Source: Rhodospirillales bacterium (lineage in GTDB: Bacteria > Pseudomonadota > Alphaproteobacteria > Rhodospirillales > 2-12-FULL-67-15). From it: a DNA stretch of 64,000 nt. The translations under genes and the position numbers were made by a program. The first letter of the stretch is position 1; each line of letters begins with the position of its first letter. The notes below the pieces were generated by a model. The model searched no databases, was not told where the DNA came from, and saw only the letters and a program-made list of their open reading frames with translations. This document shows positions 358 to 38,601 of this stretch, piece after piece. The stretch spans positions 9,514-73,513 of the forward strand of contig VGZQ01000002.1 in assembly GCA_016872535.1 (NCBI GenBank). Direction: 5' to 3'.

Positions 358-404
358 GCGCGCGGACACGTCCGCGCGCCCGATGCGGCGCCCCCTATGC
401 GGGG
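358..404 (+). repeat. Intergenic relative of the short palindromic element family
   Basis: GCGCGCGGA-cacg-TCCGCGCGC (9-bp stem, 358-379) followed by CCCCC-TATGC-GGGG (391-404); same two-part layout as the coding copies at 5516-5570 and 9986-10040. Confidence 0.6.
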
Positions 405-5324: not shown

Positions 5325-6266
5325 ATGGCCGCTCCCCGCACCCGCTTGCGCCCGACGCCCCGGCGCTACCCCTCGACGCGAGACGAGGACGAAATCGCCC
5401 GCTTCGAGGCCGACGCCGGGGATTGGTGGCGATCCGACGGCGCCTTCGCGGCGCTGCACCGCCTCAACCCGGTCCGCATCGCCTTTATCCGCGACGCCGT
5501 CTTGGCGCACTTCGGGCGCTCCGGTAGGGGCGCGTCATCCAAATATGCGCGCGGGGATTCGCCCGCGCGCCCGTTGAAGGGCCTCGACGTGCTCGATGTC
5601 GGCTGCGGCGGCGGCATCGTGTGCGAGCCGCTCGCCCGGCTCGGCGCGCGCGTGACCGGGATCGACGCCGGCGCCGACAACGTGCGCGCAGCCGCCCTGC
5701 ACGCCCGCGCCTCGCGTCTCGACATCACCTATCGCACCGCCGCGCCCGAAGACTTGATTCGCGACAAGGCCCGCTTCGACGTCGTGCTCAACATGGAGGT
5801 GATCGAGCACGTCGCCGAGCCGGGCGCGTTCGTCGAAACCTGCGCCGCGCTGGTGCGGCCGGGCGGGCTGATGGTGCTCGCCACCCTCAACCGCACGCTG
5901 AAGTCGCTGCTGCTCGGCAAGATCGCGGCGGAATACGTGCTCGGCTGGATACCGCCCGGTACCCACGATTGGAGCAAGTTCGTCCGGCCGGACGAACTGG
6001 CGGGCATGCTTGCGAACGCGGGGTGCGTCGCCATCCGCCGGGCGGGTGTCGCGTTCGATCCGTGGCGGGGCGAATGGCGTCTCGCCGACGATCTCGGCGT
6101 CAATTACATGATGGCGGCGGCGAAAGAGAGAAAGCGCGATCCAGCGCGGCGGCGCGGGCCGGCGCGGCCTGTTCAGCTGTCGCGACGGGGACGGCCCGGC
6201 AGGGGAAAAACCTCAATGCCCTCGTCGTCGAGGCGGCGGGTGTCGTCCGGGCTGGCCTCGCCGTAG
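5325..6266 (+). CDS. ubiG: Ubiquinone biosynthesis O-methyltransferase, with 17-aa insertion and extended C-terminus
   Basis: EIARF...WW...LHRLNPVRIAFIR, VLDVGCGGG, EVIEHV, GTHDWSKF, NYMM; divergent from lysC as is usual in Alphaproteobacteria. Confidence 0.93.
   Translation: MAAPRTRLRPTPRRYPSTRDEDEIARFEADAGDWWRSDGAFAALHRLNPVRIAFIRDAVLAHFGRSGRGASSKYARGDSPARPLKGLDVLDVGCGGGIVCEPLARLGARVTGIDAGADNVRAAALHARASRLDITYRTAAPEDLIRDKARFDVVLNMEVIEHVAEPGAFVETCAALVRPGGLMVLATLNRTLKSLLLGKIAAEYVLGWIPPGTHDWSKFVRPDELAGMLANAGCVAIRRAGVAFDPWRGEWRLADDLGVNYMMAAAKERKRDPARRRGPARPVQLSRRGRPGRGKTSMPSSSRRRVSSGLASP
5516..5570 (-). repeat. Palindromic element inside ubiG (antisense orientation)
   Basis: GCGCGCGGG-GATTCG-CCCGCGCGC at 5547-5570. 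The reverse complement of 5516-5570 matches 9986-10040 at 47/55 positions without gaps (hand count). Confidence 0.85.
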
Positions 6267-6702: not shown

Positions 6703-7830
6703 TCAGACGGCTCCGATCCACGCCATAAGGTCCCGCGCGCGGTGCTTCCATGTGTGATGTTGCGCCTGCCAAGCCCGACCGTTGGCCGCGATCCGCTCCG
6801 TCTCCCGATTGCGCGCGAGCCGACGGCCGATGTTGTCCGCCGCGTCGGCCATGTCGAGTCGAATAACCGCCTCCTCGGGGGCGTGCGCATCGAACCAGCG
6901 CGTCGGCACGGTCGCGGCCGCCGCGCCCGCGGCTTGGGCGTCGAATACCCGCTCGTGGGTTCCGTGAAATCCGGTGCAGGCGTTGAGCACGATCTTCGCG
7001 CGCGCCATCAACGCCTGAATCTCGTCCGCCGGACGCACGCCGAGAAAAACGAAACCGCAGTCCGCGTGACGCGCGGCAAACGCGTCCCATCCGCCCCCGG
7101 CCACGGTCACCGGCAGCCCTCGAAGCGACTCCAACAGTCGCCAGCGCGCATGGGCTCGCAAATAAACGTCGAGCGTCGCGAAGTACGGATGGATCGCGTA
7201 GGGGTTCCTGACATCGAGCCGGCCGCCGAGAATCTCTTCGATGGCCGCGGTCAACGGGCGCAGCGGCGCGGCGAGGTGGTTTTCGAGCACCGCGTTCAAT
7301 TCCGCGGCGACCTTGGCGCCGTGTCGGATCCAGCTTTCCCGCGTCCGTTCCGGATTCTCGCATCCGGTGGCCGGAAACAGGAGCGCAATGTCGCGCTCCG
7401 CCCACGGCCGGCCCGATCCCGGCTCGGCCGCGTGCGGCAAATGGCGAACCGCAATCGCCGGCGCGACGGCATGCCAATAGTCGAGATCGCAATCGGACAC
7501 CGTAGTGACGATCCGCCGTCGGATCGGAACCAAAACCTGATCGGCGTAGCCGACCAGCGGGTCGAAATAGATCGAAACCAACGGAAGCCCGATCCGGTCG
7601 AAGAGGTTGTTCTCGGCCCTGAGATCGAGACCGAGACCGGTCGCGCTGACGAAGAAATCCGCTTCGCCGCCTGCGACCGCCCGCCGCAACGTTTCGGCGA
7701 AGTCCGGCCGGCGAACGTCGAGCAGGGACGCACCCACGCCGCAAGCGGCGAGGCCCCGCGCCAATCCCGCCAGCATGCGTGCCACGTTGCCGTGGAGTAC
7801 GTCGCCGGTGAACAGTATGGCCTTCTTCAT
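6703..7830 (-). CDS. Glycosyltransferase-like protein (GT-B, CgeB/Glyco_trans_1_2-like C-terminus)
   Basis: C-terminal VTVAGGGW...MARAKIVLNACTGFHGTHERVFDAQAAGAA...HTWKHRA pattern. Start at ATG 7830. Confidence 0.65.
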   Translation of the reverse strand: MKKAILFTGDVLHGNVARMLAGLARGLAACGVGASLLDVRRPDFAETLRRAVAGGEADFFVSATGLGLDLRAENNLFDRIGLPLVSIYFDPLVGYADQVLVPIRRRIVTTVSDCDLDYWHAVAPAIAVRHLPHAAEPGSGRPWAERDIALLFPATGCENPERTRESWIRHGAKVAAELNAVLENHLAAPLRPLTAAIEEILGGRLDVRNPYAIHPYFATLDVYLRAHARWRLLESLRGLPVTVAGGGWDAFAARHADCGFVFLGVRPADEIQALMARAKIVLNACTGFHGTHERVFDAQAAGAAAATVPTRWFDAHAPEEAVIRLDMADAADNIGRRLARNRETERIAANGRAWQAQHHTWKHRARDLMAWIGAV

Positions 7831-7920
7831 TCGTAGGGTTTCGAACCGTGAACTCCGACCGTCGGGGAGTATATTCGGCGGCAGGCGAAATCGTGCATAA
7901 TGATGATGGTCCCGCCCGAC

Positions 7921-8604
7921 ATGATGCCCGAATCCGCAAAGACCGACGACGAGCTCCGCGCCCGCCACCTGCGCGTGGCCGAGCCGTCCCCCTGGGTCGC
8001 GCGTTTCGCCCACCTGGTTCCGGCCAAGGGCTTGGTGCTCGATCTCGCCTGCGGCGGCGGACGACACGCGCGCTATTTCGCCGGGCGCAGCCACCCGGTA
8101 GTGGCGCTCGACCGCGACACGACGGCGCTCAGGGAATCCGCTCCGGCCGGCGTCGAAATCCTCACCGCCGATCTCGAGAACGGCGCGCCGGTGTTCGATC
8201 CGCCCGGTCCGCTCGCCGGACGCGCGTTTGCCGGCATCGTTGTCGTCAATTATTTGTATCGCCCGCTTTTGCCCCGGCTACTCGCCCTGCTCAATCCCGG
8301 CGGCGCGTTGATCTACGAAACCTTCGCGCGCGGCAACGAACGCTTCACCCGGCCGCGCAATCCCGATCACCTGCTGAAGGCGGGCGAGCTGCTGGAATTC
8401 GCGCGCGGCAGGCTCCAGGTCGTCGCCTACGAGCACGGGATAGTCGAGGGCGATCCGATCCCCGGCGTCAAACAACGCCTCGCCGCCGTCAACGACCTCG
8501 GACGTTCGACCCGCGCGGCGGCGGGCGAATCCCTGCCGCCAAATGACAAAGGCCGCGAGGATTCGCTCGCGGCGGGCGAGCCGGAACCGCATCCGCTCGC
8601 TTAG
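7921..8604 (+). CDS. Class I SAM-dependent methyltransferase (TehB-like)
   Basis: PSPWV, VLDLACGGGRH, IVVVNYLYRPL, LIYETFARGNERFTRPRNPDHLLKAGELL. Alternative start at 7900. Confidence 0.85.
   Translation: MMPESAKTDDELRARHLRVAEPSPWVARFAHLVPAKGLVLDLACGGGRHARYFAGRSHPVVALDRDTTALRESAPAGVEILTADLENGAPVFDPPGPLAGRAFAGIVVVNYLYRPLLPRLLALLNPGGALIYETFARGNERFTRPRNPDHLLKAGELLEFARGRLQVVAYEHGIVEGDPIPGVKQRLAAVNDLGRSTRAAAGESLPPNDKGREDSLAAGEPEPHPLA
8517..8579 (+). repeat. Inverted doublet of CGAATC-loop hairpins inside the methyltransferase 3' end
   Basis: GGCGGCGGG-CGAATC-CCTGCCGCC (8517-8540) and GCCGCGAG-GATTCG-CTCGCGGC (8552-8573); 11-bp direct repeat GCGGCGGGCGA at 8518 and 8569, 51 nt apart. Confidence 0.75.
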
Positions 8605-9428
8605 GAAAACTCCCGATCGCTCGAAATCGCCGGCACCTTGGCGCGCGCCTCGGCAACGCGGGCCGGGTCGATGCGCGCGACCACTATGCCCGGCTCCTCG
8701 CCGCCGTCGGCGAGCACTTCGCCCCACGGATCGACGATCAGCGAATGGCCATAGGTCTTGCGCCCGTCCGCATGCTCGCCGCATTGGGCCGGAGCGAAGA
8801 CGAAGGTGCCGTTTTCGATCGCGCGCGCGCGCAGCAACACGTGCCAGTGCGCCCGTCCGGTCGGCCGGGTGAAGGCCGCCGGCACCGAAAAGAAGTCCGC
8901 GCCCCTTTTCGCCAGGGCGCGGTAGAGCTGCGGAAAGCGCATGTCGTAGCAGACGGTCATGCCGAGCCGCCCCCACGGCAGGTCCGCCGTCACCGCCCGA
9001 TCGCCGGGGCGATAAGTGCGCGATTCGTGGTAGCGCTCGCCCTCGCCCAGATCGACGTCGAACATGTGAATCTTGTCGTAGCGGGCGGCGACGGTTCCGT
9101 CGGGCGCAAGCAGGAACGAGCGGTTGGCGACGCGCTCCGGCTCGCTCTCGGTCTTGACCACCAGCGAGCCCGCGAGCAGCCACGCCCCGGTTTTGCGCGC
9201 AAGATCGCGAAACGCCGCCAATGCCGGGTCTTCCGCCTCGGGCCGCGCCTTGGCCAGCACGGCGTCGCGCTTCGGCTCCAGCATGTTGACGATTTCCGGC
9301 AGCAGAATGAAATCGGCGCCCCGGTCGCGCGCGCGTCGGACCAGATCGACGGCGACGGGGATATTAATGTCGGGTTCGCGCGCCGAGGTGATCTGTACGC
9401 AGGCGACGGTGAAAATTGCTCCGGGCAC
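8601..9428 (-). CDS. Carbon-nitrogen hydrolase (Nit1-like)
   Basis: LLPE, YDKIHMFDVD, GMTVCYDMRFP, VPAAFT, HWHVLLRARAIEN, TYGHSLIVDPWG (Glu-Lys-Cys triad). Confidence 0.95.
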   Translation of the reverse strand: MPGAIFTVACVQITSAREPDINIPVAVDLVRRARDRGADFILLPEIVNMLEPKRDAVLAKARPEAEDPALAAFRDLARKTGAWLLAGSLVVKTESEPERVANRSFLLAPDGTVAARYDKIHMFDVDLGEGERYHESRTYRPGDRAVTADLPWGRLGMTVCYDMRFPQLYRALAKRGADFFSVPAAFTRPTGRAHWHVLLRARAIENGTFVFAPAQCGEHADGRKTYGHSLIVDPWGEVLADGGEEPGIVVARIDPARVAEARAKVPAISSDREFS

Positions 9429-9788: not shown

Positions 9789-10994
9789 ATGTCCAGCCGC
9801 CTCGTGATCGTTTTTTGCCTGGTTCTGCCGCTCGCCTGGACGGGCGCGGCTTTCGCCGATCCCGTGGTCGGGCCGAGGCCGCAGGCGGTGGACGATATCC
9901 CGAGCGAAGGCGCGCCCGGCCACCGGGTGGAAACCTGGATCGGGGGGCTGGAGGCGCCCTGGTCGCTCGCGTTTCTGCCCGACGCGCGCGCGGGCGAATC
10001 CCCGCGCGCATCATCGAATGATGGGCCCCTATCGGGGCGCGCCCTGGTCAGCGAGCGGCCGGGTCGTATCCGCCTGATCCAAAACGGCGCGCTAAGGCCC
10101 GAACCCTACGCCCGGATCGACGTCGCCACCGGCGGCGAAGGCGGCCTGATGGGCTTGGCGCTCCATCCCGATTTTCCGCGGGCACCTTTCGTCTACGTCA
10201 TGCACACCTATTTTCCGGGGCCGCTGCCGGCGTTCGCCCGCCGCAACAAGGTCATCCGCCTCCGCCATCTCGGCGATACGGGCGCGTTCGATCGCGTCGT
10301 GCTCGACGGCATTCCGGGCGCCCTCAACCACAACGGCGGGCGGATCGGCTTCGGCCCCGACCGCATGCTCTACGTAACGACCGGGGAAATCTACGAAGCG
10401 GAGCTGGCCCAGGACCCCGCTTCCCTCGCCGGAAAAATTCTGCGCGTCACCCCCGAAGGCGACGTTCCCGCCGACAATCCCATTTCCGGATCGCCGGTCT
10501 GGTCGCTCGGCCACCGCAACCCGCAAGGGCTCGCCTGGCAGCCGGCGAACGGGGACCTGTTCGCCTCCGAGCACGGACCGTCGGGCGAATTTGGCCTCGG
10601 CGGCCACGACGAAATCAACCTGATCCTCCGGGGAGCCAATTACGGCTGGCCGCGCGCCGTCGGCGCGCCGAACGTGGCGGCCTACCGCGATCCGCTGGTG
10701 GTCTGGAAGACGCCGACCACGCCGCCCTCGGGCATCGCCTTCTGGCGCGGCGATCTTTACGTCGCGACGCTCCGCAGCCAAGCGCTGATGCGCATCGCGC
10801 TCGCCCGCGCCGGAAACGATTACCGGATCACGCGCATCGAGCGCTGGTTCGCGCACGGTGACAATCGTCCCGGGCGGCTGCGCGACGCCGTCGCCGGGCC
10901 CGACGGGGCGCTGTACGTGCTCACCAACAACCGCGACGGCCGCGGGCGGCCGCGCGAGGGCGACGACCGGATTCTGAGAATCACTCGACCCTGA
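9789..10994 (+). CDS. PQQ-dependent sugar dehydrogenase family (GSDH) protein, exported, with 17-aa insertion
   Basis: Signal peptide; GLEAPWSLAFLPD, GEGGLMGLALHPDF, HNGGRIGFGPD, GKILR, GHRNPQGL, DEINLI..GANYGWP, GRLRDAVAGPDGALYVLT. Confidence 0.92.
   Translation: MSSRLVIVFCLVLPLAWTGAAFADPVVGPRPQAVDDIPSEGAPGHRVETWIGGLEAPWSLAFLPDARAGESPRASSNDGPLSGRALVSERPGRIRLIQNGALRPEPYARIDVATGGEGGLMGLALHPDFPRAPFVYVMHTYFPGPLPAFARRNKVIRLRHLGDTGAFDRVVLDGIPGALNHNGGRIGFGPDRMLYVTTGEIYEAELAQDPASLAGKILRVTPEGDVPADNPISGSPVWSLGHRNPQGLAWQPANGDLFASEHGPSGEFGLGGHDEINLILRGANYGWPRAVGAPNVAAYRDPLVVWKTPTTPPSGIAFWRGDLYVATLRSQALMRIALARAGNDYRITRIERWFAHGDNRPGRLRDAVAGPDGALYVLTNNRDGRGRPREGDDRILRITRP
9986..10042 (+). repeat. Palindromic element inside the GSDH gene (sense orientation)
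   Basis: GCGCGCGGG-CGAATC-CCCGCGCGC-ATCATCGAATGATGGGCCCCTATCGGGGCGC; GCGCGC direct repeat at 9986 and 10037, 51 nt apart. Confidence 0.85.
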
Positions 10995-38570: not shown

Positions 38571-38601
38571 AAAAAGGGCCGCGAGTTTCCTCGCGGCCCT
38601 T
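38571..38601 (-). terminator. Rho-independent terminator of rpsD (possibly bidirectional)
   Basis: AAGGGCCGCGAG-loop4-CTCGCGGCCCTT, with a U run on the minus strand. Confidence 0.85.

What the first reader, a model, noticed from the sequence alone, without database searches (positions are those of the whole stretch)
8517..8579. Third 51-nt in-frame module: inverted pair of CGAATC-loop hairpins with an 11-bp direct repeat
Seen: hairpin 8517-8540 (loop CGAATC) and hairpin 8552-8573 (loop GATTCG, its reverse complement), with GCGGCGGGCGA repeated at 8518 and 8569, again 51 nt apart. The protein reads AAGE-SLPPNDKGREDSL-AAGE. The stems differ from the ubiG/GSDH copies but loop and module length are kept. 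The second stem (GCCGCGAG/CTCGCGGC) equals the stem of the rpsD terminator (38578-38597). Inference: a BIME-like doublet of the same family, possibly related to local terminator hairpins and able to affect transcription at this convergent gene end.
Basis: partly seen in the sequence, partly recalled or inferred. Interest (0 to 1): 0.65.

Follow-up and report, generated by a model that had tools for sequence, protein, structure and literature searches.

The report
In-frame hairpin repeat inside methyltransferase gene
A 57-base, two-hairpin repeat from a family with well over a hundred copies in a few uncultured freshwater alphaproteobacteria sits in frame near the end of a methyltransferase gene and adds 18 amino acids. 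Repeats of this sort inside genes are already known (Rickettsia RPEs, intragenic REPs), so this is a new family, not a new phenomenon.

Summary
Window 8517-8573 holds two GC-rich hairpins whose loops, CGAATC and GATTCG, are reverse complements, and an 11-nt direct repeat lies 51 nt apart. Shuffled sequence almost never gives such hairpins.

It is an insertion. All 24 orthologues aligned lack these residues, and a syntenic relative has the empty site. The net gain is 54 nt (18 codons), not 51.

The stretch does not match the 51-nt ubiG/GSDH type (T1). It is a near-exact member of a sister subtype (T2): GGCGGCGGG-CGAATC-CCCGCCGCC, an 11-nt AT-rich spacer, then GCCGCGAG-GATTCG-CTCGCGGC. About 17 independent T2 copies turned up in related MAGs and metagenomes. 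Several sit in frame in dnaX, glyQ, rlmJ and other genes. T1 has about 90-100 copies in four related MAGs.

Best reading: a REP/BIME-like, RPE-like non-autonomous repeat, tolerated in a poorly modelled C-terminal tail.

- The link to the rpsD terminator is probably coincidence.
- A terminator-like hairpin plus T-run faces the convergent nitrilase-family gene, but no RNA data could be found.

Verdict: new member of a known kind, moderate-to-low interest.

The parts
8517..8573 (+). T2 repeat element, 57 nt: hairpin 1, 11-nt A-rich spacer, hairpin 2. Read in frame as AAAGESLPPNDKGREDSLAA.
   Evidence: It differs from the T2 consensus at one hairpin base, C>T at 8534; the spacer varies between copies. 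T2 copies are at L015, L056, L066, L083, L110 and L114-L142. It is absent from the syntenic relative L001-L003 and from the 24 orthologues aligned.
8517..8540 (+). Hairpin 1: GGCGGCGGG CGAATC CCTGCCGCC. The loop carries a GANTC site (GAATC).
   Evidence: In other strains 8534 is C, the consensus base that pairs perfectly, and 8521 is G or A.
8541..8551 (+). Spacer AAATGACAAAG, A-rich on the sense strand of the host gene.
   Evidence: The spacer varies between copies. It is A>T on the host gene's sense strand in both orientations.
8552..8573 (+). Hairpin 2: GCCGCGAG GATTCG CTCGCGGC, with a GANTC site (GATTC). On the minus strand it is followed by CTTTGTCATT, which looks like a terminator.
   Evidence: The exact 22-mer was found in 31 metagenome stretches. 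It did not vary among the strains seen.
8569..8579 (+). Second copy of the 11-nt direct repeat GCGGCGGGCGA (first copy 8518-8528). It is the last 5 nt of the element plus 6 nt of flank.
   Evidence: The flank bases GGCGA are ancestral, present in L001. The right flank of T2 copies has the weak consensus gGcgGgcg, which restarts the element's 5' arm.
7900..8604 (+). Host gene: class I SAM-dependent methyltransferase-like protein, 234 aa. Orthologues are 202-227 aa.
   Evidence: In the AF2 model residues 178-234 have pLDDT below 50.
8601..9428 (-). Convergent carbon-nitrogen hydrolase gene. Its 3' end overlaps the host gene by 4 nt. The element lies 27-83 nt downstream of its stop on the minus strand.
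   Evidence: L001 has the same 4-nt overlap.
5516..5570 (+). T1 element, copy A, in frame in ubiG. Net +51 nt, read as SGRGASSKYARGDSPAR.
   Evidence: 48 bits against the T1 profile.
9986..10040 (-). T1 element, copy B, in frame in the GSDH gene. Net +51 nt, read as ARAGESPRASSNDGPLS.
   Evidence: 53 bits.
38578..38597 (.). rpsD-side intrinsic-terminator hairpin GCCGCGAG TTTC CTCGCGGC. It shares the stem only and is judged unrelated.

Best explanation
Window 8517-8573 is one copy of a short, non-autonomous palindromic repeat of the REP/BIME kind.

The family has at least two subtypes.
- T1: GCGCCCC-GRTA-GGGGCGC, an AT-rich spacer of about 10 nt, then GCGCGCGGG-GATTCG-CCCGCGCGC.
- T2: GGCGGCGGG-CGAATC-CCCGCCGCC, an 11-nt AT-rich spacer, then GCCGCGAG-GATTCG-CTCGCGGC.
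The subtypes share the invariant GATTCG loop, while the stems differ by compensating changes.

Shown here. A T2 copy entered the 3' part of a methyltransferase gene after this lineage split from its closest sampled relative. The element's length keeps the reading frame and this frame has no stop, so it is translated as 18 extra residues. These lie between the catalytic core and the conserved GEPEPHPL end, in a tail that is poorly modelled and probably flexible. The copy is present in all sampled strains of this species-level population and is slowly picking up point changes in hairpin 1.

Inferred. The copies are spread in trans by an enzyme that recognises the hairpin and its loop on single-stranded DNA. 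A Y1/HUH transposase of the RAYT or IS200/IS605 type is the obvious candidate, but none was found. Intragenic copies survive only where the frame stays open and the protein tolerates a hydrophilic loop. Any effect on transcription of the convergent gene is a by-product.
For: - Insertion. The 24 orthologues aligned read ...R-(E/D)D-GEPEPHPL without the 18 residues. Syntenic contigs L001-L003 have the empty site, a 54-nt gap. The same contigs also lack the ubiG and GSDH copies.
- Dispersed family. The exact T2 hairpins with an 11-nt spacer recur in other loci of two related MAGs and in 31 metagenome stretches.
- The T1 core gave 104 stretches in one-genome-per-species contigs. Nearly all lie in four related MAGs.
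- In frame in real genes. T2 lies in dnaX (between the lid domain and domain III), glyQ (C-terminal end), rlmJ, a dienelactone hydrolase, a MotB-like gene and a TPR-methyltransferase gene. Orthologues P0023 and P0025 of this same methyltransferase carry independent insertions at another site.
- By codon-position GC, 14 of 24 T2 copies and 34 of 97 T1 copies lie in coding frames. Only 3 of 24 and 23 of 97 have no open coding-like frame.
- Frame constraint. T1 spacers in internal coding copies are 10 or 13 nt in 28 of 29 cases. Lengths of 11 and 12 nt occur only outside that class.
- Hairpin selection at family level. 7 of 9 stem pairs show double changes under an invariant loop. The two-hairpin DNA fold has z about -4.4.
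- Tolerance. The AF2 model gives pLDDT below 50 for residues 178-234.
- Fixed but drifting. Strains differ at 8521, 8534, 8536 and 8547, and no contig skips the element.
Against: - No transposase was identified. ORFs between inverted copies and beside arrays are all housekeeping genes. tblastn with E. coli RayT against the 1.05 Mb held found nothing.
- T2 carries neither the GTAG nor the CGTC tag of the two large REP superfamilies.
- No target-site duplication or exact insertion boundary could be defined. The element is 57 nt and the net gain is 54 nt.
- A same-site T1 copy in GSDH of three lineages differs at 0-2 of 52 positions while its flanks differ by 12-24%. This means selection, gene conversion or re-insertion, so the family is not simply decaying junk.
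- The coding and non-coding classes rest on a codon-position GC heuristic. About 40% of T1 copies fall in ambiguous classes.
Confidence: 0.85

Rival explanations
1. Co-opted transcription element. The copy acts as an intrinsic terminator or a 3' stabilising hairpin for the convergent C-N hydrolase mRNA (minus strand), or it stops antisense read-through into the methyltransferase gene. This would be why it is kept.
For: - On the minus strand, hairpin 8573-8552 is followed by CTTTGTCATT and passes the consensus terminator scan, 27 nt past the hydrolase stop.
- The two genes overlap by 4 nt, so there is no intergenic room for a terminator.
- Intragenic copies of both subtypes are T-rich on the antisense strand.
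- Classical REPs cluster after the 3' ends of convergent genes (PMC3733652).
Against: - The relative with the empty site has the same 4-nt overlap and no terminator-like site there, so none is required.
- The scan found 4 sites where shuffles give 1.8 +/- 1.4, which is weak.
- The T-run has only 5 T in 8.
- The spacer asymmetry holds for copies deep inside genes too. Amino-acid or stop-codon constraints explain it equally well.
- No RNA data exist for this stretch.
Confidence: 0.12
2. Adaptive protein module. The 18 residues were selected for what they do in the protein, for example as a linker or an interaction motif, and the DNA hairpins are incidental.
For: - The insert is fixed in every strain sampled.
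- The same peptide types recur in many proteins.
Against: - The same DNA is read in two to three different frames and on both strands, giving unrelated peptides: AAAGESPPP..REDSLAA, AASESSRQ..KGGGDSPAA and others.
- It also occurs outside genes.
- Conservation is at the DNA level. The hairpins are near-identical while the spacer, the middle of the peptide, is free to vary.
- The host proteins are unrelated.
- The region is modelled with low confidence.
Confidence: 0.03
3. Local origin. The structure arose in place, either by a 51-nt tandem duplication (hence the 11-nt direct repeat) or by a templated quasi-palindrome mutation that used the ancestral CGC GAG GAT codons.
For: - An 11-nt direct repeat lies 51 nt apart.
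- The motif GAGGAT (Glu-Asp) inside hairpin 2 mimics the ancestral ED codons of the orthologues.
Against: - Near-identical 57-nt elements, GAGGAT included, lie in unrelated genes of other genomes.
- The interior has no similarity to the flanking ancestral sequence.
- The left copy of the 11-mer is the conserved arm and loop of the family hairpin, not a piece of the target.
Confidence: 0.01

Closest known systems
REP / BIME elements of Enterobacteria and REPINs of Pseudomonas (REP-RAYT systems; PMC3116915, PMC3733652)
   Same: - Short GC-rich imperfect palindromes in about a hundred copies or more per genome.
- Units paired in inverted orientation around a short linker (T2).
- Tandem arrays in which neighbouring units share an arm, with a T1 period of about 46-52 nt.
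- Lineage-restricted distribution, with the sequence conserved across related species.
   Different: - T2 has no GTAG or CGTC end tag.
- No RAYT gene was found in the sequence that could be searched.
- A large share of the copies lie inside genes rather than between them.
- The two T2 arms are only 78% complementary, and as DNA they fold as two separate hairpins.
Rickettsia palindromic elements (RPEs; cited in PMC3733652 and PMC10969869)
   Same: - Palindromic repeats inserted in frame into unrelated housekeeping genes and translated as extra peptide segments.
- Both orientations are used.
- The host is an alphaproteobacterium.
   Different: - RPEs are about 100-150 bp and occur in obligate intracellular bacteria. 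These elements are 52-57 nt and occur in free-living lake and groundwater bacteria.
- Sequence relatedness to RPEs was not tested.
Intragenic GTAG/CGTC REPs (Di Nocera, De Gregorio and Rocco 2013, PMC3733652)
   Same: - REP monomers and dimers that encode about 20-30 residues inside ORFs, including replication and repair genes. Here dnaX is one host.
- Many lie at ORF ends.
   Different: - A different sequence family without the defining tags (T2).
- The intragenic share appears much higher here.
[quoted passage not shown]
   Same: A small alphaproteobacterial repeat that carries GANTC (CcrM) sites. Here every GATTCG/CGAATC loop contains one.
   Different: - CIR is reported as strictly intergenic, whereas this family is often intragenic.
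- No sequence comparison was made.
- Neither methylation nor the presence of CcrM was tested here.
Rho-independent terminators
   Same: A GC-rich 8-bp stem and 6-nt loop followed by a T-rich tract on the minus strand.
   Different: - The hairpin lies inside a coding sequence.
- The T tract is weak.
- It belongs to a dispersed repeat.
- The relative without it has no terminator at that place.

Membership tests
REP (repetitive palindromic element) | Short imperfect palindrome, highly repeated and dispersed in the genome of a lineage | tested here: met
   The T1 core gave 104 stretches, nearly all in four related MAGs. There are about 17 independent T2 copies. Hairpin folds have z about -4.4. The census of this genome itself was not possible.
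REP (GTAG or CGTC superfamilies, PMC3733652) | GTAG or CGTC tetranucleotide at one end of the palindrome | tested here: not met
   The T2 57-mer contains no GTAG, CTAC, CGTC or GACG (read directly from the sequence). T1 has GTAG in 32 of 85 copies, ATAG in the rest, and it sits in the loop and stem of hairpin 1, not at an end.
REP-RAYT / REPtron | A Y1 (HUH) tyrosine transposase gene flanked by inverted REPs in the same genome | tested here: inconclusive
   ORFs between inverted copies and next to arrays are housekeeping genes. tblastn with E. coli RayT against the 1.05 Mb held gave no hit.
BIME | Two REPs in inverted orientation separated by a short linker, also found in tandem arrays | tested here: met
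   The two T2 loops are reverse complements (CGAATC and GATTCG) around an 11-nt linker. Arrays occur at L020, L035 and L103 (T1) and at L133 and L135 (a 77-nt-period variant).
BIME | Binding by IHF, gyrase or Pol I | not testable with these tools
   This needs biochemistry.
REPIN | The two inverted REPs pair into one long hairpin that is the mobile unit | tested here: inconclusive
   The arms are 78% complementary. The RNA minimum-energy fold with flanks is one long hairpin. The DNA minimum-energy fold of the 57-mer is two separate hairpins.
RPE-like behaviour (in-frame intragenic palindromic repeat) | Inserted in frame in functional genes and absent from orthologues | tested here: met
RPE (Rickettsia families RPE-1 to RPE-10) | Sequence homology to an RPE family; length about 100-150 bp | not tested
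   No RPE sequence was compared. The length, 52-57 nt, differs.
MITE | Terminal inverted repeats derived from an IS element, plus a target-site duplication | tested here: inconclusive
   The ends are the hairpin arms. Flank conservation fades within about 4 nt. No clean duplication shows at the three sites with known empty alleles.
Intrinsic terminator | GC-rich hairpin followed by a U tract, with transcript 3' ends there | tested here: inconclusive
   The minus strand meets the consensus pattern. No RNA runs are available. The site is absent in the relative with the empty allele.

The most novel reading that the evidence does not exclude
The family may be a maintained system adapted to living inside coding sequence, not passive junk.
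- Its invariant hairpin loops are CcrM methylation sites (GANTC), a motif this genome otherwise avoids: 177 seen against 319 expected.
- The hairpins at one site of the GSDH gene stay unchanged in three lineages while the flanking codons diverge by 12-24%.
- That copy is missing, with the reading frame intact, from the window's lineage, which would fit seamless excision.
- The spacers are biased by strand relative to the host gene.

On this reading, a dedicated enzyme that recognises hairpins, possibly sensitive to methylation or the cell cycle, inserts and removes units whose length keeps the frame. These units would act as protein loops and as antisense terminators in free-living alphaproteobacteria.
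Probability: 0.12. Interest if true: 0.6.

Novelty: new member of a known kind. Interest (0 to 1): 0.35.

Why it matters
This adds an RPE-like case of palindromic repeats written in frame into housekeeping genes, in free-living, uncultured freshwater alphaproteobacteria. The host genes include dnaX, glyQ, rlmJ, ubiG and this methyltransferase.

For annotation, it explains lineage-specific 16-18-residue inserts and odd C-terminal extensions in these MAGs, and warns against reading them as functional motifs.

The family gives a compact data set for asking how such elements stay compatible with coding sequence. It has two subtypes with one loop, a length that keeps the frame, a strand-biased spacer and known empty and filled sites. 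It also lets one ask whether a GANTC loop ties the elements to CcrM methylation.

Tried and rejected
I used pattern scans of the public collections instead.
- T1 sequence profile (nhmmer). It finds the ubiG and GSDH copies but not this one (E about 1). I first took C for a decayed or de novo copy. I dropped that when near-exact T2 copies turned up.
- Two-insertion model. Aligning the internal Glu-Asp (GAGGAT) with the ancestral ED codons suggested a 42-nt plus a 12-nt insertion. I dropped it because GAGGAT is part of the conserved T2 hairpin elsewhere.
- Target-site duplication and exact boundaries. These could not be resolved.
- RAYT/REPtron search. No Y1 transposase turned up among ORFs between inverted pairs or beside arrays. 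tblastn with E. coli RayT was also negative. This is inconclusive, because only about 1 Mb of fragments was available.
- Rfam at gathering thresholds gave no family in the window.
- RNA evidence. No RNA run holds the region.
- Presence/absence polymorphism. No contig in four other metagenome runs skips the element.
- rpsD terminator kinship. Rejected as a coincidence of a common GC-rich 8-mer.

Full report
**What is there.** Window 8517-8573 lies in the last 90 nt of a plus-strand ORF (7900-8604, 234 aa). The ORF encodes a class I SAM-methyltransferase-like protein with weak Pfam matches. Its stop overlaps by 4 nt the stop of a convergent carbon-nitrogen hydrolase gene (8601-9428, minus strand).

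- Hairpin 1: GGCGGCGGG/CGAATC/CCTGCCGCC, with one G-T mismatch at 8534.
- An 11-nt spacer, AAATGACAAAG.
- Hairpin 2: GCCGCGAG/GATTCG/CTCGCGGC, a perfect stem.
- GCGGCGGGCGA at 8518 and 8569.

Three perfect hairpins with stems of at least 8 bp on this loop occur in the window, against 0.01 expected from dinucleotide shuffles. As DNA the 57-mer folds into the two hairpins (z = -4.4). As RNA with flanks, one long hairpin is slightly preferred.

**It is an insertion.** The 24 orthologues I aligned, from about 5,000 relatives, are 202-227 aa long. They read ...NDLGxSxR-(E/D)D-GEPEPHPL, whereas the window reads R-AAAGESLPPNDKGREDSLAA-GEPEPHPLA.

Three metagenome contigs (L001-L003) come from the closest sampled relative, 81% identical in protein (BLASTP). 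Their genes run in the same order, except that they lack the glycosyltransferase gene noted below. They show a clean 54-nt gap here. The same contigs also lack the 51-nt inserts in ubiG and GSDH. So all three window copies post-date that split.

All seven members of the 90% protein cluster carry the insert. So do contigs from lake, biofilm, sediment and groundwater runs, and none of these skips it.

**Which family.** The ubiG (5516-5570, +) and GSDH (9986-10040, -) copies share a perfect 26-mer. Scanning one genome per species with its 22-nt core gave 104 stretches. Nearly all lie in four MAGs labelled Rhodospirillales or Hyphomicrobiales, with single stray matches in three other genomes (Streptomyces, a Myxococcales MAG, a Solirubrobacteraceae MAG).

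Their consensus, T1, is GCGCCCCGRTAGGGGCGC, then ATCATTTAAT, then GCGCGCGGGGATTCGCCCGCGCGC. That is two hairpins around an AT-rich spacer, sometimes in arrays whose units share an arm.

A profile of T1 does not detect the finding (E about 1). However, tabulating every hairpin with a GATTCG loop in the fetched DNA showed that both of its stems recur. They recur together, as GGCGGCGGGCGAATCCCCGCCGCC, 11 nt, then GCCGCGAGGATTCGCTCGCGGC, in other loci of the same MAGs. A metagenome scan with hairpin 2 added 31 stretches.

The window copy differs from this T2 consensus by one hairpin base, 8534 C>T; the spacer varies between copies. Other strains still have C at 8534. The internal GAGGAT (Glu-Asp) therefore belongs to the element and is not the ancestral ED codon pair.

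Its left copy is the conserved left arm and loop of the element. Its right copy is the element's last 5 nt plus an ancestral GGCGA in the flank. Right flanks of T2 copies tend weakly to restart the left arm (gGcgGgcg).

**Behaviour of the family.** A codon-position GC test was calibrated on the known genes of the window. By this test, 34 of 97 T1 copies and 14 of 24 T2 copies lie inside, or at the 3' end of, coding frames. Only 23 and 3 copies respectively have no open coding-like frame. The rest are ambiguous.

Pfam confirms T2 copies in real genes:
- dnaX, between the lid domain and domain III;
- glyQ, at the C-terminal end;
- rlmJ;
- a dienelactone hydrolase;
- a MotB-like protein;
- a TPR-methyltransferase linker.

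Orthologues P0023 and P0025 of this same methyltransferase carry independent inserts at another site.

Two frames dominate for each subtype. For T2 they are AAAGESPPP....REDSLAA on one strand and AASESSRQ..KGGGDSPAA on the other. In internal coding T1 copies the spacer is 10 or 13 nt in 28 of 29 cases. Lengths of 11 and 12 nt appear only outside that class.

The spacer is A-rich on the sense strand of the host gene whichever way the element points (T2 p = 0.002; T1 p = 0.003 to 4e-5). Some T2 rows are the same locus in different strains. Counted by hand as independent loci, the split is 5 against 5 with no overlap.

Across subtypes, 7 of 9 stem pairs show double changes under an invariant loop. 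That set was pre-filtered for pairing, so only the co-variation counts as evidence, not the percentage paired.

**How it most likely works.** What is shown is a dispersed, structured repeat that arrived here recently. It keeps the frame open and lies in a tail that AF2 models with pLDDT below 50 (residues 178-234, shallow alignment).

What is inferred is mobilisation in trans by an enzyme that reads the hairpin and loop on single-stranded DNA, as RAYTs do for REPs and REPINs (PMC3116915). I could not find such a gene:
- ORFs between inverted copies and beside arrays are housekeeping genes.
- E. coli RayT gives no tblastn hit in the 1.05 Mb held.

**Transcription idea.** On the minus strand, hairpin 2 is followed by CTTTGTCATT, 27 nt after the hydrolase stop, and it passes a consensus terminator scan. 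The relative with the empty site has the same 4-nt gene overlap and no such site. The T-rich antisense spacer is a general property of intragenic copies. No RNA run holds the region. I treat a terminator or stabiliser role as possible but unshown.

The rpsD hairpin (38578-38597) shares only an 8-mer that occurs 10 and 12 times on the two strands of the window. It has a different loop, so I take it as coincidence.

**Observations that complicate "junk".** A T1 copy at one site of the GSDH 3' part is present in L001, L009 and L027. It differs at 0-2 of 52 positions while the flanks differ by 12-24% (P = 1e-4 to 2e-3). It is missing from the window, with the reading frame intact. Selection on the hairpins, gene conversion, repeated insertion at a preferred target, or precise excision could each explain this.

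The invariant loop contains GANTC, the CcrM site of Alphaproteobacteria. That motif is strongly avoided in this window, 177 against 319 +/- 16, as reported for alphaproteobacteria that encode CcrM (PMC3973325).

**Comparison and verdict.** In-frame palindromic repeats are known: the RPEs of Rickettsia, and intragenic GTAG/CGTC REPs in several phyla, often as dimers encoding 20-30 residues (PMC3733652, PMC10969869). This family works like those and like BIME doublets. It lacks the GTAG/CGTC tags, and a RAYT has not been shown, so I do not file it in those named superfamilies.

It is a new member of a known kind. Interest is moderate to low. A small chance remains that the family is a maintained, methylation-linked system.

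Noticed in passing
L001 7577-7630 and 7677-7698; L009 6789-6842; L027 486-540; window about 10814-10855: GSDH of three related lineages carries a T1 copy at one site. L001 also has a solo GCCGCGAG-GATTCG-CTCGCGGC hairpin. The element differs at 0-2 of 52 positions while the flanks differ by 12-24%. The window lacks it, with the reading frame intact. Possible explanations are a precise loss, or repeated gain at a preferred target.
   Followed up: partly
L110 3062-3118 (protein P0023); protein P0025: Orthologues of the same methyltransferase in other lineages carry independent inserts at a second site, after DKDTAA. One is a T2 copy read on the other strand (AASESSRHVYKGGGDSPA). The other is a longer composite variant with an extra hairpin.
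   Followed up: partly
whole window: GANTC (the CcrM site) is strongly under-represented: 177 sites against 319 +/- 16 in shuffles. Yet every GATTCG/CGAATC loop of the repeat family carries one, and each T2 copy adds two sites 34 nt apart.
   Followed up: partly
L021, L025, L057, L093, L094; L113, L133, L135: Composite relatives of the family exist. One type has an extra hairpin (GCACGCC..GGCGTGAC) between the two usual ones. Another has a longer left hairpin and forms arrays with a 77-nt period between an aminotransferase gene and a homoserine dehydrogenase gene.
   Followed up: no
window 358-404: An intergenic stretch, GCGCGCGGACACGTCCGCGCGC...GCCCCCTATGCGGGG, looks like a degenerate relative of T1 with a different loop. 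It is not detected by the T1 profile.
   Followed up: no
window 6703-8094 (-) compared with L001: The glycosyltransferase gene between DUF1178 and the methyltransferase is present in the window, L108 and L110. It is absent from the closest relative, L001, where DUF1178 is followed directly by the methyltransferase.
   Followed up: no
window 7900-8604; contig L139: NCBI names the protein of a 43,554-nt contig that matches the window across the repeat (8534 T included) as 'Acidimicrobiia bacterium' (MBM3732354.1). Its orthologues, its gene order and the repeat-bearing MAGs are all Rhodospirillales/Hyphomicrobiales-like. This is probably a binning or labelling error.
   Followed up: no
window 5325-6266 and L001 3482-4384: The ubiG ORF overlaps the convergent DUF1178 gene by about 94 nt both in the window and in the relative. 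The long Arg-rich UbiG tail is therefore conserved, not an assembly error of this window.
   Followed up: no
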